Shown: positions 2,909 to 60,000 of the stretch, one piece after another | Numbering within the stretch: the first letter of the stretch is position 1 | Layout: each line of letters opens with the position of its first letter | DNA from: Malacoraja senta | Lineage: Eukaryota | NCBI GenBank assembly: GCA_038087875.1 | Contig: CM075988.1 | Location: forward strand, 24,926,001 to 24,986,000 | Reading direction: 5' to 3' | Length of the DNA: 60,000 nucleotides | Position numbers and translations under genes: made by a program | The notes under the pieces: generated by a model | What the model saw: only the letters and a program-made list of their open reading frames with translations | Database searches by the model: none | Told to the model about the DNA's origin: nothing

Positions 2909-3225
2909 AGTGCTTTTCTTTGGAAAAGTTGTTAAACTGAGGTTGGCCCAAAAGATTTCATGTCATCCCCCAGTTGAGAGATCAGTGGCTATGGCCAATC
3001 TTCATTATTCAATGAGCACCATTGGAAAAATAGCATATTATTGAATATTGTCAAATTGCTGTTTGTGGGAATATGTACAATTGCCACATTGCAAAAATGA
3101 CAACATTCCATTGGTAGTAAACCACTGACACCTACTGAGCTCACAAATAGTATGAAATAAATACAAACTTTCCTTTTCTCTTTGATCTGTCAAGACCTGT
3201 CCAACCAAAGTTGACCTTTTGTATG

Positions 3226-3444
3226 TTGTTAAAGAAGGAACTGCAGATGCTGGAAAATCGAAGGTACACAAAAGTGCTGGAGAAACTCAGCGGGTGCAGC
3301 AGCATCTATGTAGCGAAGGAAATAGGCAACGTTGCGGGCCGAAACCCAGTCTGAGGAAGGGTTTCGGCCCGAAACGTTGCCTATTTCCTTCGCTCCATAG
3401 ATGCTGCTGCACCCGCTGAGTTTCTCCAGCATTTTTGTGTACCT
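3226..3444. mobile_element. Inverted dimer of Penelope pLTR/hammerhead element
   Basis: Minus arm then plus arm; TSD ttgac(c/t)ttttgtatg at 3211-3225 and 3445-3459. Confidence 0.9.
3351..3378 (+). ncRNA. Minimal hammerhead ribozyme motif (Penelope type)
   Basis: CTGAGGA-A-GGGT-TTCG-GCCC-GAAACGTT: core boxes, helix II with UUCG loop, palindromic ACGT in place of helix III; helix I only ~2 bp. Confidence 0.65.
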
Positions 3445-3827
3445 TTGACTTTTTGTATGCTCCATATATCTGCAGGGTTGGCAGGAAGAACATTAAAGTA
3501 GGCGGTGTATGACTGCCAATAGGTTAGATCAGTAGAGGCACAAAGTGTTTGACTCTCAGTTAACAGTTAGATCTATTAATGGCTCTATGCGTGGAGAAAG
3601 GCCCAGAATAAACCAGCAAGAACAAGTCACCACATGCTGAAGATTACACGGGTTCTGGGAACTTGCCGGAAGCTCTGACATTTCCACTTGTGTTAGTTTC
3701 TTTGGAATAAGATGACAACCCTAGCTTTGTGAATTATGGATCTGAAAATTTTAGATGCTGCCTCCCACTTTGGTAAGCAAGTGCCAGGCCATTTTCTTGT
3801 ACCTGTGATGAACTCTGCAAATCTATT

Positions 3828-4210
3828 GGAGACAAAAAGCTGTAGAAACTTAGTGGGTGAGGCAGCATCTATGGAGCGAAGGAATGGGTAACGTTTCTGA
3901 TAGAGTCCCTTCTTCAGACTGATCTGGGGGTGTGGCAGGAAGAAGAAAGGAAAATTCGGAGACAGTAGGCTGTGGGAGAGCTGGGAAGGGGAGGGGAAGG
4001 AGGGAGAAAGCAAGGACTACCTGAAATTGGAGGTCAATGGGGTGTAAACTACCCAAGCGCAATATGAGGTGCTGCTCCTCCAATTTGCGGTGGGACGCAC
4101 TCTGGCCATGGAGGAGGCCCAGGACAGAAAGGTTGGATTCGGAATGGGAGGGGGAGTTGAAGTGTTGAGCCACCGGGAGATCAGGTTGGTTAATGTGACC
4201 TGAGCGGAGG
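3828..4210 (-). mobile_element. Penelope-like element 3' end: GIY-YIG endonuclease C-terminus, 3'UTR and pLTR
   Basis: ORF 3850-4275 contains PVAQHFNSPSHS..LSVLGL..RKLEEQHLILRLGSLHP, followed on the same strand by a pyrimidine-rich UTR and a decayed CTGAAGA...GAAACGTT motif. Confidence 0.9.
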
Positions 4211-4804
4211 ACTATTTGTCGTATTGTGCTCAGTTGGATGTCTATCGCCCAGTATTGCAACTTTGTCCGCTGCACCTTTCAATTTCGGACAGTGTGTCAA
4301 ATAAACCTTGAAGTGTTTCTGTGTGTCATGCAATGGCAAAAGTATTGTGCAAAATAAAGGCAGTATCAGCATCTAAAATAGCTAGCAAAATCATTTCATT
4401 CATTAAAATAGGACTGAAGTAGGGTCACTGTGGTGGTTAAAGATTACTCATTAATTTTAAGGTTATTGTGAATAAAGAAGACCAAGGTGTTTGTCTGAAA
4501 ATGATGTATCATCCAATTAGGAACGTTGTTTGCTTAACGATAGTGTGGGAACACAGGTGTTAGTGAGGACTGACATTTTTTTATACTCATTTTCAGGATT
4601 CAGGCTTGGGGCTGGCATGACTAGTATTCATTGCCCAACCATAATTACCCTAAACAAAGCTGTGGTGAGCTGCCTTGTTCAACTGCTGCAGCCCTTGTGG
4701 TGAAAAGGTTCTCCTAAAATGTTCCAGGATTTAGACCCAGCGACAAGGATGGACTGGTGATATATTTCCAAGTCAGGTTGGTACCTAGCTTGGAGGGAGA
4801 TTTG

Positions 4805-5052
4805 TAGTTTAGCTTAGAGATGCAGCGCGGAAACAAGCCCGAGTCTGCAATGACCACATTAACACTGTCCCACGCACACGAGGGACAATTTACAATTAAC
4901 CTACAAACCTGTGCGGGAGGAAACCGGAGATCCCGGAGAAAACTCACGCAGATCACGGGGGGGAACATTCAAAAACTCCATACAGACACGCACCCATAAT
5001 CAAGATCAGACCAGGGTCTCTGGAGCTGTAAGGCAGCAACTCTACCCATGTG
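4805..5052 (-). mobile_element. HE1-type V-SINE
   Basis: Tail tagtttagcttagagat; ggaaaccggagatcccggagaaaactcacgca; head gctgtaaggcagcaactctacc. Confidence 0.85.
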
Positions 5053-5228
5053 CATTTGTAGGCTCTTGTCCTTTTGGGTGGTGGAGGTCACAGGATTGGA
5101 AGGTGCTGATGGCTTAGTTTATGTCAATAACTACAATGCATGTTGTAGATGATGCACAACAAAGCCATTGTGCATTGAAGGTGGAGGGAATGATGGTTTA
5201 TAGTGGTTGCTGGTTGCCACTCAAATGG

Positions 5229-5520
5229 TTCATCAGGTCAGGTCGGGGGGGGGGAACTCCCCCCCCCATGTAATCCCGCGCTACCTGCTCCATGGTCGGA
5301 TAGTCGGTGACTAAACCGTCTCCCCCACCTGGTTTGCCAGGTGAGGAGGGGGCTGTGGACCCCCAGCAGAACCAAATACAAGACCTGTCAAAGGGTGGAT
5401 GAGCTTCTAGCGAGCCAACGGCCATCCACACTTCAGTAGAAGTTGCGATCACTGTCGTACATAGCATTGTAAGGCACCGTGCCCATTGATGTTTTCAACG
5501 ATGATGATGATGATGATGAT
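5229..5520 (+). mobile_element. Short non-autonomous RTE-like retroposon with (GAT)n tail
   Basis: GC-rich hairpin-forming 5' part, (GAT)n tail ~5500-5520, approximate TSD tca(a/g)atgg at 5221-5228 and 5521-5528. Confidence 0.55.
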
Positions 5521-5800: not shown

Positions 5801-5933
5801 ATGTGTAGGAAGGAACTGCAGATGCTGGTTGACACTGAAGATAGACACAAAATGTTGGAGTAACTCAGCGGGTCCGGCAGCATCTCTGGAGAAAAGGAAT
5901 AGGTGATGTTTTGGGTCAAGACCCTTCCTCAGA
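5801..5933 (-). mobile_element. pLTR/hammerhead short element (gtgtagg-ended subfamily)
   Basis: gtgtaggaaggaactgcagatgctgg...acccttcctcag. Confidence 0.85.
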
Positions 5934-6040: not shown

Positions 6041-6172
6041 TGTGTAGGAAGGAACTGCAGATGCTGGTTTAAACCGAAGACAGACACAAAAAGCTGGAGT
6101 AACTCAGTGGGACAGGCAGCATCTCTGGAGAGAAGGAATGGGTGACGTTTCGGCTCGAGACTTCTTCTGACT
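6041..6172 (-). mobile_element. pLTR/hammerhead short element
   Basis: Full monomer on minus strand. Confidence 0.85.
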
Positions 6173-6770: not shown

Positions 6771-6902
6771 TGTTCAAGAAGGAACTGCAGATGCTGGAAA
6801 ATCAAAGGTAGACAAAAATGCTGGAGAAACTCAGCGGGTGCGGCAGCATCTATGAAGCGAAGGAAATAGGCAACGTTTCGGGTCGAGACCCTTCTTCAGA
6901 CT
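6771..6902 (-). mobile_element. pLTR short element with intact hammerhead core (6872-6899, minus)
   Basis: Reverse complement reads CTGAAGAAGGGTCTCGACCCGAAACGTT. Confidence 0.85.
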
Positions 6903-7859
6903 TTCCAAAATCCAATGCTTTCAGCCATTTGTTGACATCATGTAGATATGGCAAGTAAGAATGTGAGAGCATTGGTCTGGACAGTTATGTCAGCCAATAG
7001 CTATAATAGAGAATGAACTGTCATTACTCAAAGGACACATGATCATTGAGATTGCAATGTTCATCAGACAGTTGCAGATTCAGAGAATATACTGAGGGTA
7101 AAAATCTATCTTTTGTTCAATTTACCGACCATTCGAGATATTATGTCATCTATGCTGAAATTCAATTCTAAAATTTGGTTCCATTGACCAGTTTCAGATC
7201 AGTATCTAATCAGGACATATGTTGGGAGTTTAATGTATGCAACAAAGCTAGTTGCAAGCCCAAATGTAGATCGCTAGGTAATGGCTTATATCCCTTGTCC
7301 CCAGCAATGTATCCAAGTCAATCCCCTATAGTGGAAAGATGCTGATCTTGGGAACTTATCCTGAATTATCTATTGGCAATTCCTCCATTAGCATTTGTAA
7401 TGGACTTTTTTGATGAGGATTATTTATCAATAAAAATGCATTACTTATTTGGAAGTTGTGACATTTGAAAAATTCCGACATGCTCTTTGTACAACATGAT
7501 AACTCTCGTGTCTGGACAGATGCAATTAAACCTGTTAAACCTGATGGCTAAACATTCCCCTTAGTTTCATTATGGTAATGATAGGTAGCAGGTATCCTAT
7601 TTGTGTTTCCAAGGCTGTTTCTCGTGCAGGGAGGTTGTCGCGATAAGTTGCACCCAATAGGGATGTAAATGTACTGCGTGAAAATACATTATCTGGTTGT
7701 ATCTTTGTGTAAAATAGGACAATAGATGTCAGGGCTGGGGCTTCTTCACGGGAATGAATTAATTAATGTTTAAGTTCCTTTATAGAAGAGAAGGCTGCCA
7801 GGTAGAGATGATTGTTGCAGTCTAATTGTAAGCACTGGGCTTCTGCCCATCTCCCTGGT

Positions 7860-8140: not shown

Positions 8141-8263
8141 ACTGTGCATGTCAACCGGATTCACACCCATGTGCGATTTGTTCTTTATTTGTTAAGTAAA
8201 TTACCACTGGCAATAAAACATCTTATGCCCAAAGGTCTCAGTTAACAAAGCAACAGTTTACCT

Positions 8264-8492
8264 TGTTTAAGAAAGAACTGCAGATGCTGGAAAAATCGAA
8301 GGTAGACAAGAATGCTGGAGAAACTCAGCGGGTGAGGCAGCATCTATGGAGCGAAGGAATAGGTGACGTTTCGGGATCGAAACCCTTCGAAGGAATAGGT
8401 GACGAAGGGTCTCGACCCGAAACGTCGCCTATTTCCTTCGCTCCATAGATGCTGCCTCACCCGCTGAGTTTCTCCAGCATTTTTGTCTACCG
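8264..8492. mobile_element. Inverted dimer pLTR element
   Basis: TSD aacagtt(t/c)accttgttt at 8252-8268 and 8493-8509; the last 5 nt overlap the element terminus tgtttaag. Confidence 0.9.
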
Positions 8493-8619
8493 AACAGTTC
8501 ACCTTGTTTTCTTTTCTGATGAATGGGCCTGAAGTACCGCAGCCATGCCGTGTAGCATCGATGTCTGACACACATTGTAGGAGAAAACAAAGGGTCAGGA
8601 TAAATTTTCCATTTTGACA

Positions 8620-9480
8620 GTTGGTCACTCATGGGGTATTACTGGGGCCTCAATAATTTCCAATCTATGTTCATGACTTAGATGAAACGATGAAGAGTAC
8701 TGCAACCGAATTGACTGATGATACAACAATTAGTAAGTTGTGAGGGGGACAAAAGGAGGCTGGAAAAGGACATAAAAGTTTGAACATTGGGAATAATGTG
8801 GAAAACTGACATTTGGAAAGAGGAATGACACAGCAAATTATTATTTAAATTGAGTCAGAGTACAAAATATTGCGGTAAACGGGCTTATGGTGTCCTAGTA
8901 CAGTCCGTGTAATCTGGAACACAAGGCAGAAAACATAAAGGTGGAGCAGTTTTGTGCAGCTTTAATTGATGCTGGTGAGACCACACCTGGAGTGCTACCT
9001 ACCATTTCAGTTTCCGTATTTAAGGGAGGATGTGCTTGTATTGGAGGCTGTGCATAGAAGATTCTGTTGGTTGATTCCTGGGGTAAAGGGATTGATGTAT
9101 GAAGAAAGTCAAGTAGGTTTGAATGAATGAATAAGTTCATTGGCCAAGTATTCACATACAAGGAATTTGCCTTGGTGCTCCGCTCGCAAGTGACAACATG
9201 ACATACAGTGACAGTTAGGAATGACATAAAACATTAAACGTTAATAATGAATAATATTATTTATAGGTTGGGCCTATACTCATGGGAGTTTAAAATAATG
9301 AGAGGCGATCTTATTCAAACATACAGATTCTGAAGAGGTTGGCAGGATGGATGATGAAAGTGTGTTTTCTGAGTGGGGAATACGAGGAATTTATTTTCTC
9401 AGAGATCCATGTATCTTTGCAATTCTGCACCTCGGAGAAGTGTGAAAGTGTAATCTTTACATATACTCAACATAATTGTG
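8620..9480 (+). mobile_element. Old CR1 RT/ORF2 remnant with an inserted Rex1-type 3' tail (9120-9263, minus)
   Basis: ctggtgagaccacacctggagtgc = LVRPHLE; insert flanked by taggtt at 9114-9119 and 9264-9269. Confidence 0.65.
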
Positions 9481-9491
9481 TGAATTATATC

Positions 9492-9731
9492 TGTAGGAAG
9501 GAACTGCAGATGCTGGTTTAGAAACATAGAAAATAGGTGCAGGAGTAGGCCATTCGGCCCTTCGAGCCTGCACCGCCATTTAATGTGATCATGGCTGATC
9601 ATCGAAGGTAGACACAGAAGGTAGACACAAATGACAAATGTCCGTTCTTCAGACTGAAGAAGGGTCTCGACCCGAAACGTCACCCATTCCTTCTATCTGC
9701 CTGTCCCGCTGAGTTACTCCAGCACTTTGTC
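9492..9731. mobile_element. Inverted pLTR element with a nested ~85-bp CR1 3' end (9519-9603)
   Basis: TSD aattatatct at 9483-9492 and 9732-9741. Confidence 0.85.
9654..9681 (+). ncRNA. Minimal hammerhead ribozyme motif
   Basis: CTGAAGA-A-GGGT-CTCG-ACCC-GAAACGTC, with a GUC cleavage triplet. Confidence 0.65.
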
Positions 9732-9789
9732 AATTATATCTCCTTTGTTCAGTATCTCTTAATATCTTTGGTCGTTAAAGGACTCTGCT

Positions 9790-10480: not shown

Positions 10481-10772
10481 TTGAGCACGAGTCATTTGTG
10501 ATGAGGATTTGTCACTGTTTAGTCATCCTTTCCTCAATTATGTCCTTTTATTTTGTTTTTTATTATTCATGCCCATGATATAATATTATCTTATTTCATC
10601 TTTTACTTATATGAACACTAAAAGGGAACCATTCAACCCATCAGGTCCATACTAGCAGCAGGAGGAACAATATCTTTAGTCAGAGTCCCCCTTTCCATAT
10701 TTTGCTGGACCCCTGCAACGTATTCTCCCTCACACACAAGCCCATCAGCTCCACTTTAACACATTTGGCCAT

Positions 10773-10975
10773 CTGACGAAGGGTGTCGACCCAAAACGTC
10801 ACCTATTCCCTTTTCCCCAGAGGAGCTGGCTGACCCAGTTACTCCAGCATTTTGTGTCTATCTAGGGTAATTAAAAGAAGCTTATTAAACTACTGACCCA
10901 TCTTTGGGAATAGGGAGTAAACTAGAGCACCTGTAGGAAGCCCACGCAGTCACGGAGACAACATACAAATATGCA
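10773..10975. mobile_element. pLTR copy (+, 10773-10862) within or next to a decayed HE1-like SINE (-)
   Basis: ctgacgaagggtgtcgaccc..; aaactagagcacctgtaggaagcccacgcagtcacggaga. Confidence 0.65.
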
Positions 10976-12569: not shown

Positions 12570-13030
12570 AATCCAAGTCTGTCCAACCTCCCCTTACACT
12601 GTAGCGAATAGCCTCGAATCAAGGCAGCATTCTGGTAAACCTCTTCTGCATACTCTCCAAGATCTCCACATCCTTTCTGTAATGGGGCAACCAGAACTGC
12701 ATGCAATCATCCAAATGCAGCCTCTTAAACTGCATCATGACCTCCTCACTTTTATAGTGCCCCAACCAATGAAGGCAAGCATACCAAATGCTTTCTTCAC
12801 CACCCAATCATCTTGTGATGTCACTTTCAGCATGCTATGGACTTGGATAGCCCTCTGTATCTTAAGGTAGACAAAAGTGCTGGAGAAACTCAGCGGGTGC
12901 AGCAGCATCTATGGAGCGAAGGAAGATTGATCAGTCTGAAGAAGGATTTCGGCCTGAAACTTTGCCTATTTTCTCTGTCTTAATGCTTAGGGTCTTGTAT
13001 TAACTACATACTTTCTCCTTGCATTCAATT
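12570..13030 (-). mobile_element. CR1 fragment with inserted inverted pLTR element (12865-12972)
   Basis: ORF 12619-12807: LHLDDCMQFWLPHYRKDVEILESMQKRFTRMLP. Confidence 0.75.
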
Positions 13031-14414: not shown

Positions 14415-15185
14415 GATGTGATGGTAGCATGGTGGTTCATTTACTGGATACACAGCCAGATTGTTGGACTACTGATCCAGGGATATGTTCAAATCCAACC
14501 ATTCCAGCTGAAGAATTGAAGTTCCAAGGAGTTCAACGGAACTGTAATATAAAAAATCCACTTTCAGTGACAACAACCAGGAAACTTTTAATTTGTTGTA
14601 AAAAATCTTCTCGTTCCTGAGGAGAAAGATATCTTTCATCCATACACGATCTAGCCTGTATGAAGGTAGACAAAAGTGCTGGAGAAACTCAGTGGGTGCA
14701 GCAGCTATCGCTCATTAACCCATCGCTCTGGACCCATCGCTCATTAACCAACCTGATCTCCCGGTGGCTCAGCACTTCAACTCCCCCTCCCATTCCAAAT
14801 CCGACCTTTCTGTCCTGGGCCTCCTCCATGGCCAGAGTGAGCACCACCGGAAATTGGAGGAGCAGCACCTCATATTCCTCTTGGGCAGTCTGCACCCTAG
14901 CGGCATAAACCTTGACTTCTCCAATTTCCGGTAGCCCTTGCTGTCTCCTCCCCTTCTCAGCTTTCCCTCAGCCCTCGGGCTCCTCCTCTTCATTTTTCCT
15001 TTCTTCTTCCTGCCCCCCCCCCCTTCCACCCCCACTCTACATCAGTCTGAAGAAGGGTTTCGGCCCTCGAAAAGTTGCCTATTTCCTTTCTCCCTCCCTC
15101 CTAGCCTGTATGAAACCCAAAATGTGCTTCACTCTTCCCTTACAGGGCCAATCAGGGACAACAATAAATTGTGTCTGCCTACAGT
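14415..15185 (+). mobile_element. Old tRNA-derived SINE with CR1/L2-like tail, split by a Penelope insertion
   Basis: Head ggtagcatggtgg...gttcaaatcc (A/B-box-like); tail agggccaatcagggacaacaataaat. Confidence 0.55.
14662..15100. mobile_element. Penelope insertion: inverted pLTR piece plus GIY-YIG C-terminus/3'UTR/hammerhead
   Basis: Perfect 14-bp TSD ctagcctgtatgaa at 14651-14664 and 15101-15114; plus strand encodes PVAQHFNSPSHS..RKLEEQHLIFLLGSLHP. Confidence 0.9.
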
Positions 15186-17640: not shown

Positions 17641-17912
17641 GAATTTGATTTGATTTGATTTGATTTCATTTATTGTCATTGTCTTCAATGAAGAGTCAAC
17701 AAAATTATTTTTCCCTTACAGTCATACAAAAAAAACAACAAAACCCCCCTCACAAAACACAGAACCCAGTAGTCCACAACACAAACATCCCCACAGCAGC
17801 ACCAAAGTTCCCCACTGTGAGGGAAGGAACCAAAGTCCAGTCAACCTCCTAGCCGATGTTCCCCAATGTTCACCCGTGGTCGGGGCCGGGGCCTCCCGAG
17901 CATCCCGTAGTC
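17641..17912 (-). mobile_element. Non-autonomous retroposon with Rex1-type tail (tgacaataaa + (AAATC)n)
   Basis: Tail at 17641-17680; internal motif shared with 33744-33801; adjacent pLTR copy 17914-18014 (-). Confidence 0.55.
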
Positions 17913-18112
17913 AAAGAAGGAACTGCAGATGCTGGTTTAGACAGAAGATAGACACAAAAAGCTGGAGTAACTCAGCTGGACAGGCAGCATCTCTGGAGAG
18001 AAGGAATGTGTGACAATGCAGAGGACCCTGAGAACCTACTTACAACCAACAGTCAAGACCATGGCAATGATGGACTGCGGTGAGGCAGGAGACCAGGGAA
18101 GCAAAAAGGAAT

Positions 18113-18693: not shown

Positions 18694-18740
18694 GAACCAA
18701 GTCAGTTAAAGAAGGGAGGGACGACACAGAGAAAGAGAAA

Positions 18741-18918
18741 GTTTAAGAAAGAACTGCGGATGCTGGAAAAATCGAAGGTTGACAAAAATGCTGGAGAAAT
18801 TCAGCGGGTGAGGCAGCATCTATGGGTGCCCTTGGGTCTCGACCCGAAACGTCACCTATTCCTTCGCTCCATAGATACTGCCTCACCCGCTGAGTTTCTC
18901 CAGCATTTTTGTCTACCT
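18741..18918. mobile_element. Inverted dimer pLTR element
   Basis: TSD cagagaaagagaa at 18727-18739 and 18919-18931. Confidence 0.9.
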
Positions 18919-19782
18919 CAGAGAAAGAGAATGATTGGATAGTGAGAAAAAAAGAAAGAGAGGTTGACAGATAAGCAAATAAAGATGAGAGAGAAGAGGA
19001 AGAAACCAACGGAAACAGACAACAAAAGGCCGAACAAAGGCTGGTTAAAACCTAGTTAAAGGATCAGAAAAAGGATGCAGAAAAAGACGTGATGGAGACT
19101 GACAAACAGATGCAAATAGAGACTAATAGAATGCAGAGAGAGAGAGAGAGAGAGCAGAAGATGTGCGAATATTACTCTGCCAATATCTTTCATCCACTGG
19201 CTGACATTACCCACACAGTTGGGAGGAGAATGGAGGAGGGAGGAAACTTAAAAAATCGCATGAATTTGACGGCTGTGGTGCGAATTGTGTTTAGCACTTG
19301 AGTGCACATAGAATATTGCCTCATAATCTAATTTTGCTAAGGCCAGACCCGATGGTCTGAGTTCCCCTGGCTCCGTATTGCCTGCACCTAGGAGATCTGC
19401 GCAAACATTTGCACAGATGCAAGAAGAGCTCCTCGAGTTGCGATGGGTGTGATGACGCTAAGTTTCAAGGGAAACGATTCCAATTTCCAGTCAAAGCCGG
19501 GGAACAAAATTTCAGAAACAGAAGCAGTGTTCAGCTCGCATATGTAACCTAATTACGTGTTTTGTAAGGGCACAAAGAATGAATTTCTCACTGTAGAATT
19601 TACAGCACAAATACTGCTTCTGATCAAAAGTATGTCAGAAATCTGAAACTGATACCTCAAAAGATGCGGGTGATCTATTGGGATTTTCCAGACTGGGATT
19701 GATAGGTTTGTTGGAGGAAGACTTGGACATAGGTCGGGAGGGATTGGTCCAGGAAGGAGAGGATGGCGTCGAGGTACGTGGA

Positions 19783-21227: not shown

Positions 21228-21500
21228 GATCATAAGGTCATAAGGAATTGGAGTAGAATTAGGCCATTCGGCCCATCAAGTCAACTCCGTCATTCAATCA
21301 TGGCTGATCTGTCACCCCCTCCTCCTGCCTTAACTGACACCTGTACTAATCATGTTTAAGAAGGAACTGCAGATGCTGGAAAAATCGAAGATAGATAAAA
21401 ATGCTGGAGAAACTCAACAGGGTGAGGCAGCATCTATGGAGCGAAGGAATAGGTGACGTTTCGGGTCGAGACCCTTCTTCAGACACTGAAGAAGGGTCTC
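21228..21500 (-). mobile_element. CR1 3' tail followed by a pLTR element (21353-21500) with intact hammerhead core at 21455-21482 (minus)
   Basis: ggccattcggcccatc..; reverse complement CTGAAGAAGGGTCTCGACCCGAAACGTC. Confidence 0.8.
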
Positions 21501-22200
21501 TCATGGATGTTGGGCACCGGTCTCAACTAAAACATGTCACCAGAAATTGGTTGATAAAATCATGAGACTTCCTTCAGGAATTTGTTTTTCATTCCATGTG
21601 TAATATTTTGACCATGCTATTGAACATGGGAGGGTTTTTAATATTTTCAAGCACCATCCTTGAGCCAGCTGTGATAGTTAGATAGTTAATAGGAATATCT
21701 GTTCCACCTAGAGTTTTATTAAAGCTCGGGTTGTGGCCTATATTTTAACCCAGGACAGAAAATGGGCACCAATGCATTCAATGTCTGTGAGTGCCTGTGC
21801 GATGAGGGAGGAACCTCAGAGACATTGTTGCTGCCTCTCTTTTTTGTTCTCACAATGTAACCCTGTCCAGAAGCTAACCGATCATCCTTAGATGTAACAT
21901 TGCTCGATCTTCATAGACTGAACACAGGAAGGGGAAAGAACATTAAAATGACCTGTGTTTATGGAAGACCTGGGATCACATCAACAAGCCCTGTCTCAAG
22001 GTGCTTCATACAAATTACTTTTGATGTGCACCGTAAGTTTTGAAGCCAAGTTCCTGTTGTTATGAAGGTTCGACAGAGCGGGCCATTTGCTCACAGCGGG
22101 AGCTCGGAAGAAGCAAAGATTGTTTGATATCTTTTTATCCCTCTGAGAACGATATCTTCCTTCAAGTCTGACTTTATATGCATCTCCCCACTTCTTTTAA

Positions 22201-22338
22201 CGTAGACAAAAATGCTGGAGAAACGACCCAAAACTTCACCTATTCCTTCTCTCCATAGATGCTGCCTCACCCGCTGAGTTTCTCCAGCATTTTTGTCTAC
22301 CTTTGATTTTTCCAGCATCTGCAGTTCCTTCTTAAACA
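22201..22338. mobile_element. pLTR element with short inverted arm
   Basis: TSD cccacttcttttaa at 22187-22200 and 22344-22357. Confidence 0.85.
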
Positions 22339-23075
22339 TTTTACCCACTTCTTTTAATGTCAGCTGAGCACAAAACCCGCCCACATTTTATTTCCAATTC
22401 TCTATCTCACCTTCTTTCATTTTCCTAAATCTCTTTGACCAAACTTTGGTGGCTCAGTGCCGATTTTTATTCGATAATCTTTGAAACACCTTACAACATT
22501 TCACGATATTAAAATCACTTTACAAATCCAAGTTGTGTCCAATTTATCGTGGTATTAATTGAAGAAATGACACAATAACACTTTTACCTCTTAAAAATGA
22601 CAGTAGATCAACGGCATGAGCTTGGAAAAGGTTCTCTGTTTGTTTCCTGCAGAAGTACACCTCGTGGTAGTAGTCCACCTGTGATGCAATCGAGTATCAA
22701 TGCAGATTATAACATCCCCTGTTGTTGGTCTTGAACCCATGACTTGCTTTTTCAGAGAAAGAAGGAACATGACAATAACCTCTCTTGACTTGACTTAGAT
22801 TTCTATCGCAGCTTTCACAATTTCAGTACAACCCCAAAAAATACAGTCACACAAAATGTAAGAAATCTGGCACTGAAGTTACACCCAATAAGGACAGGAT
22901 TATCTGTTTAAGTGATCTTGGTAATGTGATAAATATTAATCTGGACAACCAAAAGAACTTTACTTTTACTTGAAATATATAATTGCATCTTGTACATCGA
23001 CCTGAGAGGGCAGACAGAGCCCCAGCTTAACTACATGGTGCCTCTGAAACCACGGCTCTCAATCAGTATCAGTGC

Positions 23076-23204
23076 CTGAAGAAGGGTTTCGGCCCGAAAT
23101 GTTGCCTATTTCCTTCGCTCCATAGATGCTGCTGCACCCGTTGAGTTTCTCCAGCAATTTTGTCTACCTTTGATTTTCCAGCATCTGCAGTTCCTTCTTA
23201 AACA
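23076..23204 (+). mobile_element. Solo pLTR/hammerhead monomer inserted in a Deu-SINE
   Basis: TSD cagtatcagtgc at 23064-23075 and 23205-23216; insert begins at CTGAAGA. Confidence 0.9.
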
Positions 23205-23379
23205 CAGTATCAGTGCCATTAGCTTAGACTTTGGACTCTAATCTCTGTAAAGGGCTTGAATTCACGATCTTCTGACTTGAAGATGGCATTTCCCACACTG
23301 AATTCCAGCGATCGTCCCTTGTAGGATAGCTATGAGTAAAAAGTGTAAGAAAAGCTTGTGCATACGGATGTTATAACCA

Positions 23380-26249: not shown

Positions 26250-26596
26250 GTTTAGTTTAGAGATAGATTGTGAAAACAGGCCCTTCGGCCCACTGGTCCA
26301 TGCCAACCATCGATAACCTGTATACTAATGCTATGTTATCCCACTTCCCCATCCTACACACTAGGGGAAATTTACAGAAGCCAATTTACCTACAAAACTG
26401 CACATCTTTGGAGGGTTTAAGAAGGAACTGCAGATGCTGGAAAAATCTAAGGTAGACAAAAATGCTGGAGAAACCTAGTGGGTGAGGCAGCATCTATGGA
26501 GCGAAGGAATAGGTGATGTTTCGGGTCGTTCCTTCACTCCATAGATGTTGCCTCACCCGCTGAGTTTCTCCAGCATTTTTGTCCATCTTTGGAGGG
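26250..26596 (-). mobile_element. HE1 3' part with inserted inverted pLTR dimer (26415-26583)
   Basis: TSD catctttggaggg at 26403-26415 and 26584-26596. Confidence 0.85.
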
Positions 26597-28416: not shown

Positions 28417-28848
<432 letters not shown>

Positions 28849-33187: not shown

Positions 33188-33477
33188 CCATAAAGAGTGT
33201 ACAATGGCCATAGACAATGCTTAATGAAACTTTTCCTAATTAATTTATTTTCATTAGATCCCCATATTATTTTATCCTTGGAAGAAAGAATTTAATTTCT
33301 GTGATACCCATGATAACTTTTGATCACCTCAAAGCATTTCACTGTCAATGAAATAGAATAAGATTTAGACCCAACTAACTTCCACAAACAAGTCGATAAC
33401 AACTAACTAATCTGACATTTTATTTCAGTAATGGTTGAGGAATAAATAAATGGGCCAGCCAGATTTGAGTGGGTATA

Positions 33478-34078: not shown

Positions 34079-34122
34079 GGGTATAGTGCAGTTAACTCTT
34101 AAAATAGTGCTCAGGTGATCTT

Positions 34123-34376
34123 TGTGTAGGAAAGAAGGGTCTCGACCCGAAACGTCACCCATTCCTTCTCTCCACAGATGCTGCCTGTCCCACTGAGTTA
34201 CTCCAGCATTTTGTGTCTACCTTCCATTTAAACCAGCATCTGCAGTTCTTTATTACACAAGGAACTGCAGATGCTGGTTTACGCCGAAGATAGACACAAA
34301 ATGCTGGAGTAACTCAGCGGGACAGGCAGCATCTGTGGAGAGAAGGAATGGGTGACGTTTCGGGTCGAGACCCTTC
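34123..34376. mobile_element. pLTR element nested in the terminus of another pLTR element
   Basis: tgtgtagga | plus-strand monomer | aaggaactgcag... minus-strand monomer. Confidence 0.8.
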
Positions 34377-34985
34377 TCATCTCTCACTTCTAAACTGTTG
34401 GCCCCTTAGTTTAGCTTCTAATTTGAAAGACGTAACCTCCAGCAGAACAGACAGCGTGCCAGGATAGACTGCGGAATGACCATGGCCTTCCGACTGGAAG
34501 GCGGTGTGTAATCCACAGAGTCTTGATTGGCAATAACAATTATTGACATCAGTGCGTCCCTGTCTACATCTACATGTGCCAATGGAGGTACAAGTTATAA
34601 TTGTTACTCTCATATTTGATTTACTGTTTTTTGCCACTGGAGAGAAGATTGCAATCTGCTTACAAATCATCTCCGCCATTGCCTTCACGTTGTTGTATAG
34701 AAACTGGTCGCTGCAGTCTGCTCATTTATATGAGCTTCAAACATTGGGACCTGGACTGCTGTCAGTACTTCCCATAGTATTAACGACCCAATCTCTCCGC
34801 TGGTTTCATGTTCGACTGTGCCTTCCTGTGGATCTTTGTTTAATGACCAGTTCCGTTATAATGCAGTCCATGCCTATTTTATTCATATCGTTCTCAAAGC
34901 CATGGTTATGCTATTGCTAGTTAGGTATGAGGAGAGAAGTGAGTGACTGAATTTAACCTCACTGAGGACAAGCATGATCAACTCA

Positions 34986-36758: not shown

Positions 36759-37174
36759 GTCTAATCTGAGAAGGTAGTATGAACTGGATAAGTAAAGTTT
36801 ATAATTGTTCATAAGAGTTCTGTGGGCAGGGAGGAGATAGAATGGGTGGATAGAGTGCGTGACAAGATCATGTGAGCATACACAGTGGGCAGCAAGTAGA
36901 GCATTTAAAAAGTAGAGTGCGCAGGGTCAGTGGGAGGGGAAGACACAATTAGGTAGAGTTCACGATAGGTAGAGTGTGCAGGGGCTGTATGGGGGTTGAT
37001 TAAATGGATGTTTATAATCCATGATAAACTATATATATATGAACTCCGGGAGGAGTAATTTGGATGGAAAAAAAACATTAGTTGCAAGTATTTGATATTT
37101 TGCTAAATAATAACTAAAATTTTAAAAAATGGACATAATATGTTAGATAGAACTCCAAACTCATGTTTGAATTT

Positions 37175-37378
37175 TGTTTAGGAAAGAACTGCCGATGCTG
37201 GTTGTAACCGGAGTTAGACACCAAAAGCTGGAGTGACTCAGCGGGTCAGACAGCATCTCTGTAGAAAAGGAATAGGTGACGTCTGAAGAAGGGTCTGGAC
37301 CCAAAACGTCACCCATTCCTTTTCTCCAGAGATGCTGCCTGACCCGCTGAGTCACTCCAGCTTTTGGTGTCTATCTTC
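37175..37378. mobile_element. Inverted dimer pLTR element
   Basis: TSD tcatgtttgaa at 37161-37171 and 37377-37387. Confidence 0.88.
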
Positions 37379-37827
37379 ATGTTTGAACTTTATTGGTTGT
37401 CTTTACAAATTTCCGATTCTCCTTGGAGATGATGATGAATAAATTGGGTTACAAGAACTCCCAGATTTTCGGTTTCATTGGAAGTAAGTCATTCACTGTC
37501 ACCATTGTTGACTCCAATTTCAACTCTTACATTTTAGCGGATATTTGTAGATAATTTTCTCTGGCCATCGAACCGGATTAACTTCAGAAAGTTGTAAAAA
37601 GCCAGCCAAATTCTCAGATTTACTGATTCTGTTGTTTGCGGATAAAGGGAGTGGACTGAAGTGTTGACCAGATTATTTCATGTGACATTTTTCTGGCATG
37701 CTGAGCATGTATAATATGGTTTAAGATCCCTTGGAGGGAATTTTTCCCTTTCAGTTCTTTGGAACGCAGCCAAGATGTAGGCTGAGGGGAAAGGTGATTC
37801 TCTGGGAAATGATTTAACTCGGTTACA

Positions 37828-38620: not shown

Positions 38621-38745
38621 TAAAAATATCAGCTCATCTGAAAACTATGCTGTCTATTTATAACTGTGTGGAACTATCTGAGGCCAGGCAGGGATAGAGT
38701 AGGTGTGCTTTATTTGGCAGCCTGAGATAGAAATAGGGATAAATA

Positions 38746-38950
38746 GTGGGTCAGACAGCATCTCTAGATAGAAGGAATGGGTGACATTTCAGGTTGAGAC
38801 CCTTCTTCAGACTTAGGTCTCTCAGAAGGGTCTCGACCCGAAACGTCACCCATTCCTTCTCTCCAGAGATGCTGCCTGTCCCGTCGAGTTACTCCAGCGT
38901 TTTGTGTCTATCTTCAGTGTAAACCAGGATCTGCAGTTCCTTCCTGCACA
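38746..38950. mobile_element. Inverted pLTR element
   Basis: Partial minus arm plus full plus arm. Confidence 0.8.
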
Positions 38951-43000: not shown

Positions 43001-43469
43001 AACAAACAGAAAATGCTGGAAAGTCAGTAAGTCAGGCAGCGTCCGTGGAAGGAGAAACAGGTCACATTCCAGGTTGGGGATTCTTTGTTGGATCTGGGAA
43101 AGAGAGAAATACAAGTTAGTTTTCAGCAGGAGAGAAGATGAGGGGGGAGGTTACAGATGTGTCAAAGAAAGATCTTTCAACCAGACTTTTAGATTTTCTA
43201 TGGAGTGAGAAAGAGTTAGTCAGAGTGTGAGGGAGGGGCACTCCCATGGCAGAGGGGATGGGTGTGTGTTTGTCCACACAGTGGGGGGGGGGGGGTCAGG
43301 GTGCACCTGTGATGAACTAGGTGGTTGCCAGACCACTTGGTCCACGGTTAGTTGTGCGTGGGATTGCCATCAGGAGCAGGATGTGAATGATATGGCCTCT
43401 GGAGGCTTCCCACTCTTTTGTGTTAATGTTACAGCGCAGAAAATTAGAGGCATGATATTGGCTGGTTGA

Positions 43470-44260: not shown

Positions 44261-44897
44261 GTGTGAGCTCAGATCCCTCACTTTATTTTTCTCCAGACAT
44301 AATTATCACTCCGTTTAAAAAATATATATAAACGTGGTATTTTCCATCATGCAACATTTTTTTTTAAATGCATTGGTTGGATTGCAAGTGAATCTTTCAT
44401 TGTTCTGTCTGGGACACATGACAATGAGACACTCGTGAGGCACAGTCACAGCCCATCAAACGGAGGGCAGTGCATTGCTTGGAAATTGTGGGATTGATTT
44501 GGGGAGGAAGGGGGCAGAAAGAGAGGGAGAGACAAAGGCAGAATGTTGAGGGGTGGAGGGAGAAAAAGAAAATGAGGGGAGGGGAGAGAAGTAGAGAAAT
44601 GGCTTGGAAGGAGACGGGGGGAGAGAAGGCCAATCGTTGACCTAGCCTTTGGGAGAGCCAAAGATAAGATCAAATGGGAGAGAGCAGTGAGGGACAACAG
44701 AGAGAAATATCAGGCTTGGAAGGCGATAAAGAATAGACATGGTTAGAATAGAGCAGGAGAGAGAGAGGAAGGGAGTGAGATAATGAGGGAGGGACAGAGG
44801 AGGCTTTGTGGGCGCAGAAGCAGTGGAAGTCTGAAGGGACAGGAGAGGGTGGGGGGCGATGGAGAGAGAGGGCGGATAAATAAAGAGAAGGGGATAA

Positions 44898-45104
44898 GAC
44901 AGACACAACATGCTGGGGTGACCCAGCGGGACAGGCAGCATCTCTGGAGAGAAGGAATGGGTGACGTTTCGGGTGAAGAAGGGTCTCCCCCCAAAAGGTC
45001 GCCCATTTCCTTCTCTCCAGAGACGCTGCCTGTCCCGCTGGGTCACCCCAGCATCTTGTGTCTACCTTCGGTGTAAACCAGCATCTGCAGTTCCTTCCTA
45101 ACGC
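44898..45104. mobile_element. Inverted dimer pLTR element
   Basis: TSD aggggataa at 44889-44897 and 45105-45113. Confidence 0.88.
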
Positions 45105-45110
45105 AGGGGA

Positions 45111-45320
45111 TAATAATAATAATAATAATAATATCATTTATTGTCATTGCACATAGGTGCAACGAGATTTGGTACGCAGCTTCCATCCGATGTCATCACT
45201 TAAACAACGAATGAAATTTAGATACCCCGAGAAACATGATTTATTTTAAAAAAATATCAGTAAAACAGTCTAAAGTGCAAACATGTCTGTGCCGGGTCGA
45301 TGTGCAACGATGTGTGAAAT
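45111..45320 (-). mobile_element. Rex1-type 3' tail fragment
   Basis: (TAA)n then atcatttattgtcattgcac. Confidence 0.5.
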
Positions 45321-45561: not shown

Positions 45562-45596
<35 letters not shown>

Positions 45597-56487: not shown

Positions 56488-56585
56488 AGAAACAAGGAAC
56501 TGCAGGTGCTGGTTTGCAAAGAAGGAGACAAAGTGCTGGAGTAACTCAGTAGGTTAGCGAGATCGACTGAGTTACACCAGCACAT
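56488..56585. mobile_element. Diverged pLTR element
   Basis: tagaaacaaggaactgcaggtgctgg...gctggagtaactcag. Confidence 0.65.
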
Positions 56586-57557
56586 TGGATCTTTGTACGT
56601 TTTGTTGGGGTTGGGCCTTTGCTAGTGCATCTGCATCTGTGACAAGCATGTGCTTGTTCCTGTTTGTTTATATTATGCTAGCTTGCGTGTGCATGCATGC
56701 AAAGCTTGCGGTTTTTGGTGTGTCTGTGAATGTATTCACATTACCTGTCGAAGTCCATGGTGTGCATTGGTTGTGTGCATGCCTGTAGAGTGCCATGGCC
56801 GTCTGCTCTAAAAATGCATGAATGTGATGTATGTTTCCAAAGTTTGCATGTGGACTGATGTACTTGTATGATATATGTATCCCAGTACGCACATCTGCTT
56901 TCCTGCTTAAGAATGAAATGTAAAATTCCGTGTGGAAATCGGCAACAAGGGTGAAAAGTGCTGGAAAGGACACGAGGCAAATTAAAATTAATAATTAGAG
57001 GCATCAAGCCTGAATATTGAACATGGGAGCTGTGGGAACCTGTAAGTAGTTCCAGTTTTGAGATCATTTGAACATGAGTCAGTGTAGAAGATGTAATGTT
57101 ACAGAAAGGTAAATAGTTAGGGCACTCAATAATATAATAGCTGCAATTGAGCAGACATCTGGCTTTCAATGTGTTCTTAATGATAACTATCAGTCCATTC
57201 AATGTAAATGCTATTTAAAGGTTCACAAATATAAAGGTCACATCTGCCATTTCAAGTTACTGCAGTGTTTGCTGCATATTAGAACATTGCATGACAACTT
57301 TTCACTGTTAGGGAATGAATGACTAAAAATAGGGGGCAGGGGCATGCATAGGGATTGAAATTGGCCAATTTTAGACGAGGTCACACATATGCCTTTAATG
57401 TAATGACTCCATAAGCATTGTGCCTCTCCTCATCCACATCCCTCATCTGCTTCCACATATCCCTACGGTTTTATTCAATGAGGAGATAAGGGCAGTTTAC
57501 ATATAGAATAACTAAAGTCTGCCAGTGGGATACAGGTTGCAATCTGCTTTATACCTA

Positions 57558-57691
57558 TTAGACACAAAATGCTGGAGTATCTCAGCGGGCCAGGCAACAT
57601 CTCTGGAAATGCTGCATGTCCCGCTGAGTTACTCCAGCAATTTTGTGTCTATCTTTGGTTTAAACCAGCATCTTCAGTTCCTTCCTATACA
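57558..57691. mobile_element. Inverted pLTR element lacking the hammerhead segment
   Basis: TSD ttatacct at 57549-57556 and 57692-57699. Confidence 0.82.
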
Positions 57692-58038
57692 TTATACCTC
57701 CAACAGATGTCCGAGCAAGCGAAGGCTTATAACATTGAAGTAATTGAGTGGTAGGTACTTGAGAGTGAGTTTATTTGAGTGTAAGAGTGGTTTATATATA
57801 TTTAATACTGGTTTTCTTGAGATGAAGAATGAATCAACCATATGCAAACTTATGAAGAATATAGGAAAAAGCTCTTTGTTCCTTCCAAGCTGAGCTACAC
57901 AAATTAAAAGTCTGGTACATCATGGTATCCTCTTGCATTCTAGCCACATAATTGCCTGGCAAAGTTTAAAAAAAAATCATAATGAAGGGAAAATTAGAAA
58001 TACTTTTTTTGGTTACCCTAAAACAATGGAATTAATCC

Positions 58039-58140
58039 AAGATCTGATGAAGGGTCTTGACCCGAAACATCACCTAATCCTTTTCTCCAGAGATGCTGTC
58101 TGACCCGCTGAGTTACTCCAGCAATTTGTGTCTATCTTCG
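58039..58140 (+). mobile_element. Solo pLTR/hammerhead element
   Basis: TSD gaattaatcc at 58029-58038 and 58140-58149; CTGATGA-A-GGGTCTTGACCC-GAAAC. Confidence 0.85.
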
Positions 58141-59407
58141 AATTAATCCTTCGGGTTCCTTTTGAGCTTGACTATCGAGCTCTTCCTTCTGGTTTCAGGA
58201 GACCTCCTTTCTAGCCCGAAGCAGGTCAGATTCCTGCAGGAAGGAATTTAATGAATCGAAGTTCACCACATGAGATGGCAAACGATGTCAGGCATCCATC
58301 AATCCTTTGCAGAACCAGACTCCAACAGCTAAGCAACGTCAAGCTACACATTGCTTGAGTTTGAGAACCCATGGTCCTCACTAAACTGTCCAATTAGAAA
58401 GTGTGTCAGAATGAGTATAATTTAATTGTTTTGTAAAACTAATGATGAACTTACTTTTAAATCTACTGCTCAACATGAATTTGCAGGAAGAAGAGCCTGA
58501 TATCCTTCAGTGAAGGCCATGGACATTAATTATTGGGTTGAGGTCTTCAGTCACAGTGGTCAGTATGTCACGCAGTGTATCTACAACGTGGTATGATTTG
58601 AATTCTGAATACCATTTTAGAAAAGTCATTCCCTGGATGTTGGCAGTGCTGCACCTAAGGCTGACAAATATTGTTCACCCTGTGGTGGCAAGGCCCCTCC
58701 TTAAACAGTGTAGTCTGTATGATGAAGAGACTCCTCCGCTATTGATAGGGAGGAACTAAGATTCTGCCTGGGAACAATGTTTGTTCAAGTCTGGTTGGTG
58801 TGTGACAGAGGGAATCATGAAGGTTTTGTGAAGGCACCATATCTCCTGCTCTTTGTTAATAATTATATATAATATTTATCATTATATCCTTTATTTTGCT
58901 CTTGGATGTTGGATTGTATGAAAGCCATGTATGAAATGTAATTCAATATTTCAATTAAGTTGAATATATCCTCTCTGTGGATGCAGAGGTGTTAAGATCA
59001 GTGCAAGGAGCGACAGTAAATGGCAAGCTTAAGATGACATGCACCTTTGACAAACTCAGGAACTTCCAGAGCACCTTACAGTCAAAGCAGGACAGGCCAG
59101 GCAGGAGACATGAAGTCATGGCAGGAAACCCGTGGAAACTTTTCCAGTCAACATTGGCAACTTGACCTTATGGCAATTAAACTTGAGTCAGATGGAAGCT
59201 CTGAAACTTTTCTCATGTTATTTTTTGTGCACAGTCTCGCCACCTTCTCAACCTCCTGCTGCCTCCCACCTCTTCTGCTATCTCCTTTCAGCTTTGTGTT
59301 GTGCAACAAAGGCGTGCTCTCAGTCATCAAGCTCACTGCTGCTCAGCCCCTGGGCTATTTGGGTTCAAAAGGACAACAGGGCCAGGATTTGAACTCACTC
59401 ACTCCCT

Positions 59408-59575
59408 AACCAGAGTTGCCAACTCTGGTTGCATGAGTTCCTAATCACTGGCTTCATTTATATGAGAAAGATATATCTTTTTGTTTCAAATGCTTTTGTG
59501 ATACTTGCCCTGGCAGTCGAGTTCCAGAGACAAACTTGAATTCCTGGAGACTTTAAGACAATGCTGGAAATTTGA
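59408..59575. mobile_element. Decayed hAT-like MITE
   Basis: Starts cagagttgccaactc (AGGGTTGCCAAC-type TIR); other end degraded. Confidence 0.4.
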
Positions 59576-59733
59576 TCCTTATCAAAAACAAAAGGTCGGT
59601 TTAATAATTTAAAGGGGAGCGTGCTTTTGCTGAGAGAAAAGTTTCTAGATTAGATGTATTTTGACGGCAAGTTGCTCTTGCCTCCTTTTATTTGTCAGGC
59701 CCCGTGGTTCCGTAATGCAACTTAATAAGACAC

Positions 59734-59924
59734 ATGTGCAGGAAGGAACTGCAGATGCTGGTTTAAACCGAAGATAGACACAAAATGCTGGAGTAACTCA
59801 GCGGGACAAGCAGCATCCCTGGAGCATCAGAAGCAGGCTCTCGACACGCTAAACATCACCCATTCCTTCTCTCCAAAGATGCTGCCTGTCCCACTGAGTC
59901 ACTCCAGCATTTTGGGTCTTATCG
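59734..59924. mobile_element. Inverted dimer pLTR element
   Basis: TSD ttaataagacac at 59722-59733 and 59925-59936. Confidence 0.88.
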
Positions 59925-60000
59925 TTAATAAGACACCTCCTGTGTGCAGTACAACCACAATTTAAATATTCCTGGTTGTCACTATAATATTTATTCAGCT

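What the first reader, a model, noticed from the sequence alone, without database searches (positions are those of the whole stretch)
3211..59936. Dense family of short Penelope-derived retroposons inserted as inverted dimers with both 3' ends outward
Seen: about 30 loci in 60 kb of a ~130-nt unit. It is the pLTR that follows the GIY-YIG ORF end at 3828-4210 and 14700-15090. Roughly half are two-armed (e.g. 3226, 8264, 9492, 18741, 22201, 26415, 37175, 44898, 57558, 59734), almost always minus arm then plus arm, with variable arm lengths and one TSD around the pair. Established: Penelope-like elements can show inverted pLTRs. Inference: each dimer is one event in which both strands of a staggered break primed reverse transcription on pLTR RNA and the two cDNAs were joined. 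That would make a SINE-scale, ORF-less system that mass-produces genomic hairpins.
Basis: partly seen in the sequence, partly recalled or inferred. Interest (0 to 1): 0.75.

Follow-up and report, generated by a model that had tools for sequence, protein, structure and literature searches.

The report
Miniature head-to-head Penelope retroelement insertions
These short hairpin-shaped repeats are real single-step insertions of the end piece of a Penelope-like jumping gene, laid down in the head-to-head pattern already described for this class, so they are mostly ordinary, though their sharply fixed ends hint at how the element copies itself.

Summary
Confirmed. The window holds 48 arms of a ~130-nt unit in 31 loci. 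Sixteen loci are head-to-head pairs (16 of 17 opposite-strand pairs), and 12 of the 16 sit in one 10-17-nt TSD. The unit is the hammerhead-bearing 3' end of the pLTR of a Neptune/Nematis-type Penelope-like element (PLE). One dimer appears wholly absent in three related organisms, which fits a single event. The arrangement (inverted 5'-truncated copy, ~35-40-nt 'tail' on one arm only, one TSD) is the published PLE insertion signature, here in its shortest form. No ORF-less SINE system is required: junctions differ at every locus, and two of three subfamilies have ORF-linked copies. Three details go beyond what I found in print. Exactly one arm is tailed in 14 of 16 pairs, never both. Two tail-less pairs abut like L1 twin-priming products. 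And 26 of 28 arms that reach the hammerhead stop within a few bases of its 5' edge. Best reading: both target strands prime at the two internal start sites of one RNA, and most cDNAs run off a fixed 5' boundary. New member of a known kind.

The parts
3211..3459 (.). Head-to-head dimer, subfamily A1; tailed minus arm 3227-3347, tail-less plus arm 3348-3444; TSD 3211-3225 / 3445-3459
   Evidence: inferred absent in runs X3, X7, X20
3828..4210 (-). 5'-truncated PLE copy: GIY-YIG ORF end, pyrimidine-rich pLTR part, tail-less unit (A2-type)
1798..1934 (-). Old single arm
2203..2294 (+). Tail-less arm with a short inverted stub at its 5' end
5802..5933 (-). Single tailed arm, subfamily B
6041..6171 (-). 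Single tailed arm, subfamily B
6771..6908 (-). Single tailed arm, A1, with a short imperfect TSD; empty orthologous site
   Evidence: contigs of X20 and X3 join 6771 to 6910
8252..8509 (.). Head-to-head dimer, A2; left arm tailed; 17-nt TSD
9479..9741 (.). Head-to-head dimer, B; left arm tailed and interrupted by a LINE 3' end (~9520-9603); TSD 10-14 nt
10772..10862 (+). Single tail-less arm
12853..12985 (.). Tail-less dimer, A1, whose arms abut without overlap (unit 32-93 inverted, then -8 to 33); TSD with a 2-nt indel, below threshold
14651..15114 (.). Tail-less dimer, A1: short inverted arm 14665-14705 (unit 50-93) plus long arm 14706-15092 (GIY-YIG end to unit ~43); perfect 14-nt TSD
17910..18014 (-). 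Single tailed arm, B
18725..18931 (.). Head-to-head dimer, A2; left arm tailed; 15-nt TSD
21353..21500 (-). Full tailed arm, A2, with a 15-nt inverted stub; intact minimal hammerhead core
22187..22360 (.). Head-to-head dimer, A; right arm tailed; 17-nt TSD; both arms present in run X7
23064..23217 (+). Single full tailed arm, A1, with a perfect 13-nt TSD abutting the hammerhead 5' edge
26403..26596 (.). Head-to-head dimer, A2; left arm tailed; 13-nt TSD
28476..28560 (+). Single tail-less arm, B, next to a (CA)n/(TA)n tract
31222..31400 (.). Old head-to-head dimer, no TSD detected
32320..32402 (-). Single tail-less arm, B
33026..33198 (.). Head-to-head dimer, B; 11-nt TSD
34122..34377 (.). The exception: tail stub, plus arm, minus arm (tail-to-tail); no TSD
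37161..37391 (.). Head-to-head dimer, B; left arm tailed; 15-nt TSD; arms share a private variant
38744..38950 (.). Head-to-head dimer, B; right arm tailed; no TSD above threshold
43003..43076 (-). Old single arm
44887..45113 (.). Head-to-head dimer, B; right arm tailed; 11-nt TSD; arms share private variants
56491..56594 (.). Old short head-to-head dimer; no TSD above threshold
57547..57699 (.). Head-to-head dimer, B; right arm tailed; 10-nt TSD
58027..58149 (+). Single tail-less arm, B, 10-12-nt TSD
59722..59936 (.). Head-to-head dimer, B; left arm tailed; perfect 12-nt TSD

Best explanation
The repeats are the shortest insertion products of an endonuclease-bearing, Neptune/Nematis-type Penelope-like retrotransposon. 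Shown: the unit is the pLTR end that follows the GIY-YIG ORF, and dimers are single insertions in one variable-length TSD. Inferred: the GIY-YIG makes a staggered break; each target strand primes reverse transcription on element RNA, one at the distal (tail) start site and the other at the proximal site ~35-40 nt upstream or further inside; the two cDNAs are then end-joined at their truncated ends, so the hairpin is built anew at each insertion. Also inferred, less firmly: most copies are short because RT starts internally near the RNA's 5' pLTR and stops at a fixed boundary at the 5' edge of the hammerhead (an RNA 5' end or a processing site). Starts in the 3' pLTR give the rare ORF-linked copies. 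No ORF-less master is needed.
For: ORF link; 13 of 13 relatives of >=750 aa carry CX2-5CxxC; of 6 scanned, 6 have a C-terminal GIY-YIG and 5 have RVT_1. Single event: TSD at 12 of 16 dimers against 2 of 15 others; both flanks of dimer 3227 carry one contig depth and end at the TSD in X3, X7 and X20 (table 3; inferred). Two coupled starts: one tail in 14 of 16 pairs, two tails in 0, permutation P=0.004; a junction 35-41 nt short of the unit end in 10 of 12 TSD-bounded dimers; this matches the two RT start sites bounding the tail in PMC11167929. L1-like abutting arms at 12860 and 14661. Neither arm nested in the other at 3227, 18741, 33042, 37175 and 59735. Private variants shared by both arms at 3227, 37175 and 44896. 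5' wall: 26 of 28 arms stop at unit -8 to +7.
Against: Post-insertion deletion at a hairpin apex could make a fold-back product look non-nested. In 5 pairs (22198, 26415, 44896, 56491, 57558) the tail-less arm is nested in the tailed one, as fold-back predicts. In 26415, 31222, 38744, 56491 and 59735 the partner arm is no closer than many other copies. No ORF-linked copy of subfamily B, the most numerous, lies in the window. No RNA data were seen, so the nature of the 5' wall is untested. The in-vitro data come from a Poseidon element, not a Neptune-type one. Microhomology at the primed junctions is inconsistent: the script found 2-5 nt at 5 of 24 junctions.
Confidence: 0.65

Rival explanations
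1. Self-priming or fold-back. One cDNA (or an antisense template, as proposed in PMC3846280) folds back at a micro-palindrome and copies itself; the endonuclease trims the second arm ~35-40 nt short; later deletions make the apex asymmetric.
For: The sequence at the hammerhead's 5' edge is a small palindrome, and near-perfect apexes occur at 2215, 9492, 21353 and 31222. Five pairs are nested. Shared private variants fit this model equally well.
Against: The abutting, non-overlapping arms at 12860 and 14661 cannot be self-copies. Five pairs are non-nested. The spacers at the palindromic apexes all differ.
Confidence: 0.17
2. A discrete non-autonomous element (SINE-like, or a dispersed retrozyme monomer) with its own ~130-nt RNA starting at the hammerhead edge, mobilised in trans by the PLE protein. 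It could coexist with twin priming.
For: The 5' end is sharp (26 of 28); only 2 of 31 loci reach the ORF; density is 7.3% of the window. Non-autonomous PLE derivatives are known (PMC8557442; bioRxiv 10.64898/2026.07.22.740005).
Against: A1 and A2 short copies match ORF-linked copies in the window. There are no head-to-tail arrays as in retrozymes and no tRNA or Rfam match. In PMC11167929 the template must extend 3' of the RT start sites, which a copy ending at the tail would lack (inference from another clade).
Confidence: 0.13
3. Two independent insertions, the second targeted into the first because the endonuclease cuts its own pLTR.
For: The Anolis PLE protein cleaves AT-rich sites in its own pLTR region in vitro (PMC11167929).
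Against: One TSD surrounds the pair with no second TSD inside; polarity is 16 of 17; no confident A/B subfamily mismatch within a pair (13 of 16 same, 3 uninformative); dimer 3227 is inferred wholly absent in three organisms, and no listed contig shows one arm only.
Confidence: 0.04
4. A DNA-transposon MITE whose terminal inverted repeats resemble a pLTR.
For: The palindromic shape only.
Against: TSD lengths run from 10 to 17 nt; ends are asymmetric by the tail; 14 loci are single-armed; the unit is contiguous with a GIY-YIG ORF and carries a hammerhead core.
Confidence: 0.01

Closest known systems
Inverted-pLTR insertions of endonuclease-bearing Penelope-like elements (Pen2a_Av of Adineta vaga, PMC3846280; general scheme in PMC8557442; D. 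virilis Penelope, PMC2377424)
   Same: Head-to-head arrangement, an inverted 5'-truncated copy, a 30-40-nt tail on only one of the inverted pLTRs, one variable TSD, palindromes at the junction.
   Different: Here both arms are usually pLTR ends only (130-250 nt in all), at about one locus per 2 kb, with a sharp common 5' boundary.
Poseidon element of Anolis carolinensis studied in vitro (PMC11167929)
   Same: Two internal RT start sites bounding the tail; both target strands cut and extended; hammerhead cleavage not needed. Here no arm begins at the predicted cleavage site either.
   Different: Different clade (Neptune/Nematis-type linker in the relatives here). In vitro the start site did not differ between strands; here the two arms almost always use different sites.
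Minimal hammerheads of metazoan PLEs (PMC4209133)
   Same: Type-I minimal core with an extra base before stem II and no helix III; mostly dispersed single motifs; opposite-strand pairs 100-700 bp apart reported in Schistosoma.
   Different: Self-cleavage of this motif is untested; the stem I pairing is weak.
Animal non-LTR retrozymes (bioRxiv 10.64898/2026.07.22.740005)
   Same: Short, non-coding, hammerhead-bearing and pLTR-derived.
   Different: Retrozymes are head-to-tail tandem repeats; these are solos and inverted pairs.
L1 twin priming (recalled; Ostertag and Kazazian 2001, not read here)
   Same: An inverted segment and a direct segment, both 3' ends outward, inside one TSD; loci 12860 and 14661 have this abutting geometry.
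   Different: In most dimers here the two arms cover the same stretch almost completely and start at two fixed sites.

Membership tests
EN+ Penelope-like element | C-terminal GIY-YIG endonuclease followed by the pLTR | tested here: met
   Window fragments are 79% identical to the end of P0001; relatives of 752-924 aa have a C-terminal GIY-YIG (6 of 6 scanned). The window fragment alone has no Pfam hit, as it lacks the GIY/YIG core.
EN+ Penelope-like element | Telomerase-related RT in the same ORF | tested here: inconclusive
   No RT-coding part of the element lies in the window; RVT_1 in 5 of 6 full-length relatives.
EN+ Penelope-like element | Minimal hammerhead in the pLTR | tested here: met
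   7 intact cores by my own descriptor, 0 in 50 base-shuffled windows; no Rfam match at gathering score; activity not tested.
EN+ Penelope-like element | Inverted 5'-truncated copy, 30-40-nt one-sided tail, variable TSD | tested here: met
Neptune/Nematis clades | CX2-5CxxC linker before the GIY-YIG (PMC8557442) | tested here: inconclusive
   Present in 13 of 13 long relatives and in the close fragments P0002-P0007, but that region is not in the window; no RT tree was built, so Neptune versus Nematis is open.
Non-LTR retrozyme | Head-to-tail tandem units, each with a hammerhead | tested here: not met
   No adjacent same-strand tandem units; the only same-strand neighbours (5802, 6041) are separated by ~107 nt of unrelated DNA.
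SINE | tRNA-, 5S- or 7SL-derived head with a Pol III promoter | tested here: not met
   No tRNA and no Rfam family in the window at those thresholds.
Non-autonomous PLE derivative | Own transcript and own lineage, independent of full-length copies | not testable with these tools
   No host genome is held and no RNA run was examined.
MITE | Fixed symmetric TIR ends and fixed-length TSD | tested here: not met
   TSD 10-17 nt; asymmetric ends.

The most novel reading that the evidence does not exclude
The fixed 5' boundary is a processing site of the element's RNA. In both long copies it follows a pyrimidine tract ending in CAG, at the position where D. virilis Penelope has its intron acceptor. 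On this reading, cDNAs made on spliced or splicing-committed RNA end there and are dumped as ~130-nt solos and hairpins in enormous numbers, while only unspliced RNA yields ORF-bearing copies. That would link the hairpin stubs to the long-standing puzzle of intron retention in PLEs, and the one-tail rule would be the genomic record of a dimeric enzyme using both start sites of one RNA.
Probability: 0.15. Interest if true: 0.65.

Novelty: new member of a known kind. Interest (0 to 1): 0.3.

Why it matters
PLE integration is still unresolved, and reviews name the complex inverted structures as the open question (PMC8557442). A family with a copy every 2 kb, two fixed start sites and one fixed 5' boundary is a large natural data set for telling twin priming from self-priming. 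It also matters for annotation: these stubs make up 7.3% of this window and look like MITEs or SINEs. As a 'new system' it does not stand, because the structure is the published PLE signature.

Tried and rejected
No host genome was held, so polarity could not be tabulated genome-wide. A scan of metagenome contigs with a 19-nt tail motif gave 26 loci; all 26 match only around the motif itself and were dropped as chance. A viral-contig scan gave 0. Rfam gave no match. Single arms do not fold better than shuffles (z -0.8 to +0.6 for four full arms), and the conserved 8-bp stem that closes on the tail shows no compensatory change in 15 copies, so no claim of a selected RNA fold is made beyond the hammerhead core. 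Hammerhead cleavage as the source of the inner ends is rejected: the predicted cut is at unit 26/27, and the nearest 5' ends are at 22, 23, 32 and 32. A shared spliced 5' exon upstream of the wall is rejected: upstream sequences differ at every locus. A conserved ORF start in the unit was not found: frames differ between subfamilies and no relative protein matched the unit. The RT part of P0001 is probably a chimeric gene model (my reading) and was not used. High-depth arm-to-arm joints and summed depths were not used as copy numbers or as evidence of recurrent junctions, because short contigs inside repeats inflate depth. The loose-end pile-ups at 6041 and 21484 (about 1,500 contigs per run) coincide with the ends of the reference copies and are only suggestive.
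Full report
Verdict. The head-to-head dimer in one TSD is the published PLE insertion pattern in its shortest form, not a new kind of system. The window adds three mechanistic regularities that I did not find in print: a one-tail rule, two abutting pairs and a sharp 5' boundary.

Observation. I aligned 22 window copies, built a 128-column profile and searched the window: 57 hits at E<=10, of which 48 arms at E<=0.05 were kept. The reversed window gave 3 hits, the best at E=0.13. Automatic grouping gave 31 clusters: 15 minus-plus, 1 plus-minus, 1 minus-minus, 8 minus and 6 plus. I split the minus-minus cluster (5802, 6041) into two solos and joined 14661 with 15050, which share a perfect 14-nt TSD. 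That leaves 31 loci: 16 head-to-head, 1 tail-to-tail (34122-34377, preceded by a short tail stub) and 14 single-arm. Polarity is 16 of 17, P=1.4e-4. The arms cover 4,395 of 59,800 called bases. TSDs scoring >=8 occur at 12 of 16 dimers, 2 of 15 other loci and 2% of 500 random pairs; lengths are 10-17 nt (Fisher P=0.001). The bounds were set by hand; with automatic bounds the count was 10 of 15 dimers against 4.3% of 399 controls. The 12 TSD-bounded dimers fold as DNA at -20 to -111 kcal/mol.

Identity. The minus-strand copy at 3828-4210 and the plus-strand copy at 14706-15092 encode the last ~60 residues of a PLE endonuclease, with stops and frameshifts. The best hit is 79% identical to a protein named from Leucoraja erinacea, so the host is probably a skate; the hit does not identify it. 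A search seeded with one homologue (P0003) returned 4,289 proteins at E<=0.001, 150 of them listed. All 13 proteins of >=750 aa among the 154 held carry CX2-5CxxC. Of 6 scanned, all have a C-terminal GIY-YIG and 5 have RVT_1. PMC8557442 (passages) assigns that linker with a C-terminal endonuclease to Neptune and Nematis. The unit starts with a minimal hammerhead core: CUGANGA, an extra base, a short stem II, GAAAC and GUC or GUU. Seven intact cores match my descriptor, against none in 50 base-shuffled windows. This fits the PLE minimal hammerhead of PMC4209133 (parts 1-2 of 4 read). There are three subfamilies: A1 and A2 (median 3% from their own consensus) and B (median 9%, a group that includes the unassigned old copies). 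The long copies are A2-type (3828) and A1 (14661).

One event per dimer. Contigs of four coded runs were laid on 3000-22900. The solo at 6771 is cleanly absent in X20 and X3, whose contigs join 6771 to 6910. For dimer 3227, both flanks carry the same contig depth in each of X3 (6.62), X7 (47.9) and X20 (105.8), and the pieces end at 3205-3225 and 3454-3456. In X19, the run nearest to the window, the two flanks have different depths and one piece enters the element. Other loci are shared: a contig of X7 runs through both arms of 22198, and pieces enter 8264 (X3, X7), 9492 (X20) and 14661 (X20). No listed piece shows one arm only, but only a small part of the pieces was listed. Partner arms are of the same A/B class in 13 of 16 pairs; the other 3 calls are ties or near-ties on few columns. 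Both arms share a base seen in none of 39-42 other arms at 3227, 37175 and 44896. Against this, in 26415, 31222, 38744, 56491 and 59735 the partner is no closer than many other copies.

Outer ends. The 3' ends are bimodal: 20 of 48 arms end at unit 86-100 and 22 at 120-128. In 14 of 16 pairs exactly one arm has the long end, none has two, and two pairs have none (permutation P=0.004). In 10 of 12 TSD-bounded dimers one junction lies 35-41 nt short of the unit end. This is the 'tail' that PMC3846280 (passages) describes as optionally present on one of the inverted pLTRs. PMC11167929 (main text; three supplements searched without a hit; figures not seen) shows that the tail lies between two internal RT start sites and that the protein cuts and extends both target strands. 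The two tail-less pairs are informative. At 12860 the inverted arm covers unit 32-93 and the direct arm -8 to 33; at 14661 they cover 50-93 and the ORF end to ~43. Abutting, non-overlapping arms are the geometry of L1 twin priming on one RNA (recalled, not read; search listing only). In 5 one-tail pairs neither arm is contained in the other, which a single fold-back cannot give without later deletion. In 5 others the short arm is nested, which both models allow.

Inner ends. Of 48 arms, 28 reach unit position 7 or lower. Of these, 26 stop between -8 and +7, mostly at -4 to -1, and only the two long copies continue. At the truncation rate measured inside the unit (20 events in 2,976 nt), 86% should have continued (P about 3e-20). 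Caveats: this assumes a constant rate, and the upstream reference comes from A-type copies only. However, the upstream sequences differ at every locus, and at 23079 and 6771 the TSD abuts the boundary. The boundary is ~28 nt upstream of the predicted hammerhead cut, where no arm begins. In both long copies it follows a 78-88% pyrimidine tract ending in CAG. The same bases fit an initiator-like motif (consensus recalled from memory) and a 3' splice site. In D. virilis Penelope an intron lies 46 nt below the start of transcription (PMC2377424, passages and one section) and ends at hammerhead helix I (PMC4209133). I cannot tell these two readings apart without RNA data.

Mechanism. Shown: PLE origin, single-TSD dimers, two classes of 3' end used one per arm, a fixed 5' boundary, and junctions that differ at every locus. 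Inferred: a staggered cut, priming from both strands at different sites of (probably) one RNA, and end-joining of the two cDNAs. Further inferred: RT starting in the 5' pLTR of the full-length transcript reaches the boundary after only 95-130 nt, so the autonomous element itself would mass-produce these stubs.

Comparison with what is known. [quoted passage not shown] PMC3846280 describes inverted pLTRs within 8-10-bp TSDs, notes that head-to-head is the most frequent arrangement and proposes self-priming. PMC4209133 reports thousands of dispersed minimal hammerheads per genome and opposite-strand pairs 100-700 bp apart. The retrozyme preprint (10.64898/2026.07.22.740005, parts 1-3 of 5) treats head-to-tail arrays only; its supplements, which cover one cartilaginous fish, were closed and may bear on this family. 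PMC8969392 and PMC6155905 were seen as passages. Nine literature searches returned no paper on this skate family, on the one-tail rule as a count, or on the fixed 5' boundary. The library lacks subscription papers (for example Arkhipova 2006 and Evgen'ev and Arkhipova 2005, not read), and Repbase and Dfam could not be searched. Earlier notes of this scan report similar stubs in other genomes, two of them named as shark; they are unchecked AI notes, not evidence.

Score. The finding is real, well supported and largely expected for the class; the interest lies in the end statistics as a test bed for PLE integration. Interest 0.3; new member of a known kind.

Noticed in passing
window ~54070-55550: Tc1/mariner-like element with long inverted ends and transposase-like ORF pieces on the minus strand (54461-55275); family name recalled from the translation, not tested.
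   Followed up: no
window 11424-11630, 30875-31205, 32028-32195, 34987-35990: Family of short elements with inverted ends of the same type, resembling PIF/Harbinger MITEs (recalled label); the copy at 34987 holds a LINE fragment.
   Followed up: no
window 36057-36720: LINE-like 3' fragment with an open frame of 175 aa that hits Pfam ALKBH8_N (E=6e-11).
   Followed up: partly
window 13982, 18126, 19782, 25304, 27265, 35043, 38090, 52547, 53014, 53785 and 9520-9603: Many 3' ends of one LINE family with short tandem tails; one lies inside the left arm of dimer 9492.
   Followed up: no
window 34122-34377: The only tail-to-tail pair; its arms are closer to each other (92.5%) than to any other arm and share a rare base, it has a tail stub in front and no TSD, so it may be a three-part insertion or a local inverted duplication.
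   Followed up: partly
single-arm loci throughout the window: Only 2 of 15 non-dimer loci have a clear TSD, against 12 of 16 dimers; solos may be repaired differently at their 5' end or be eroded dimers.
   Followed up: partly
window ~14931-15045 and ~3921-4022 (minus): In both long copies a GT at the ORF end and the CAG at the unit boundary enclose a 102-115-nt pyrimidine-rich stretch, a possible retained intron.
   Followed up: partly
window 43150-52200: A stretch almost free of the unit (one dimer at 44896), rich in CpG and GA tracts, possibly a regulatory region of a host gene; no gene was identified.
   Followed up: no
window 39845-40044: Assembly gap of 200 N.
   Followed up: no
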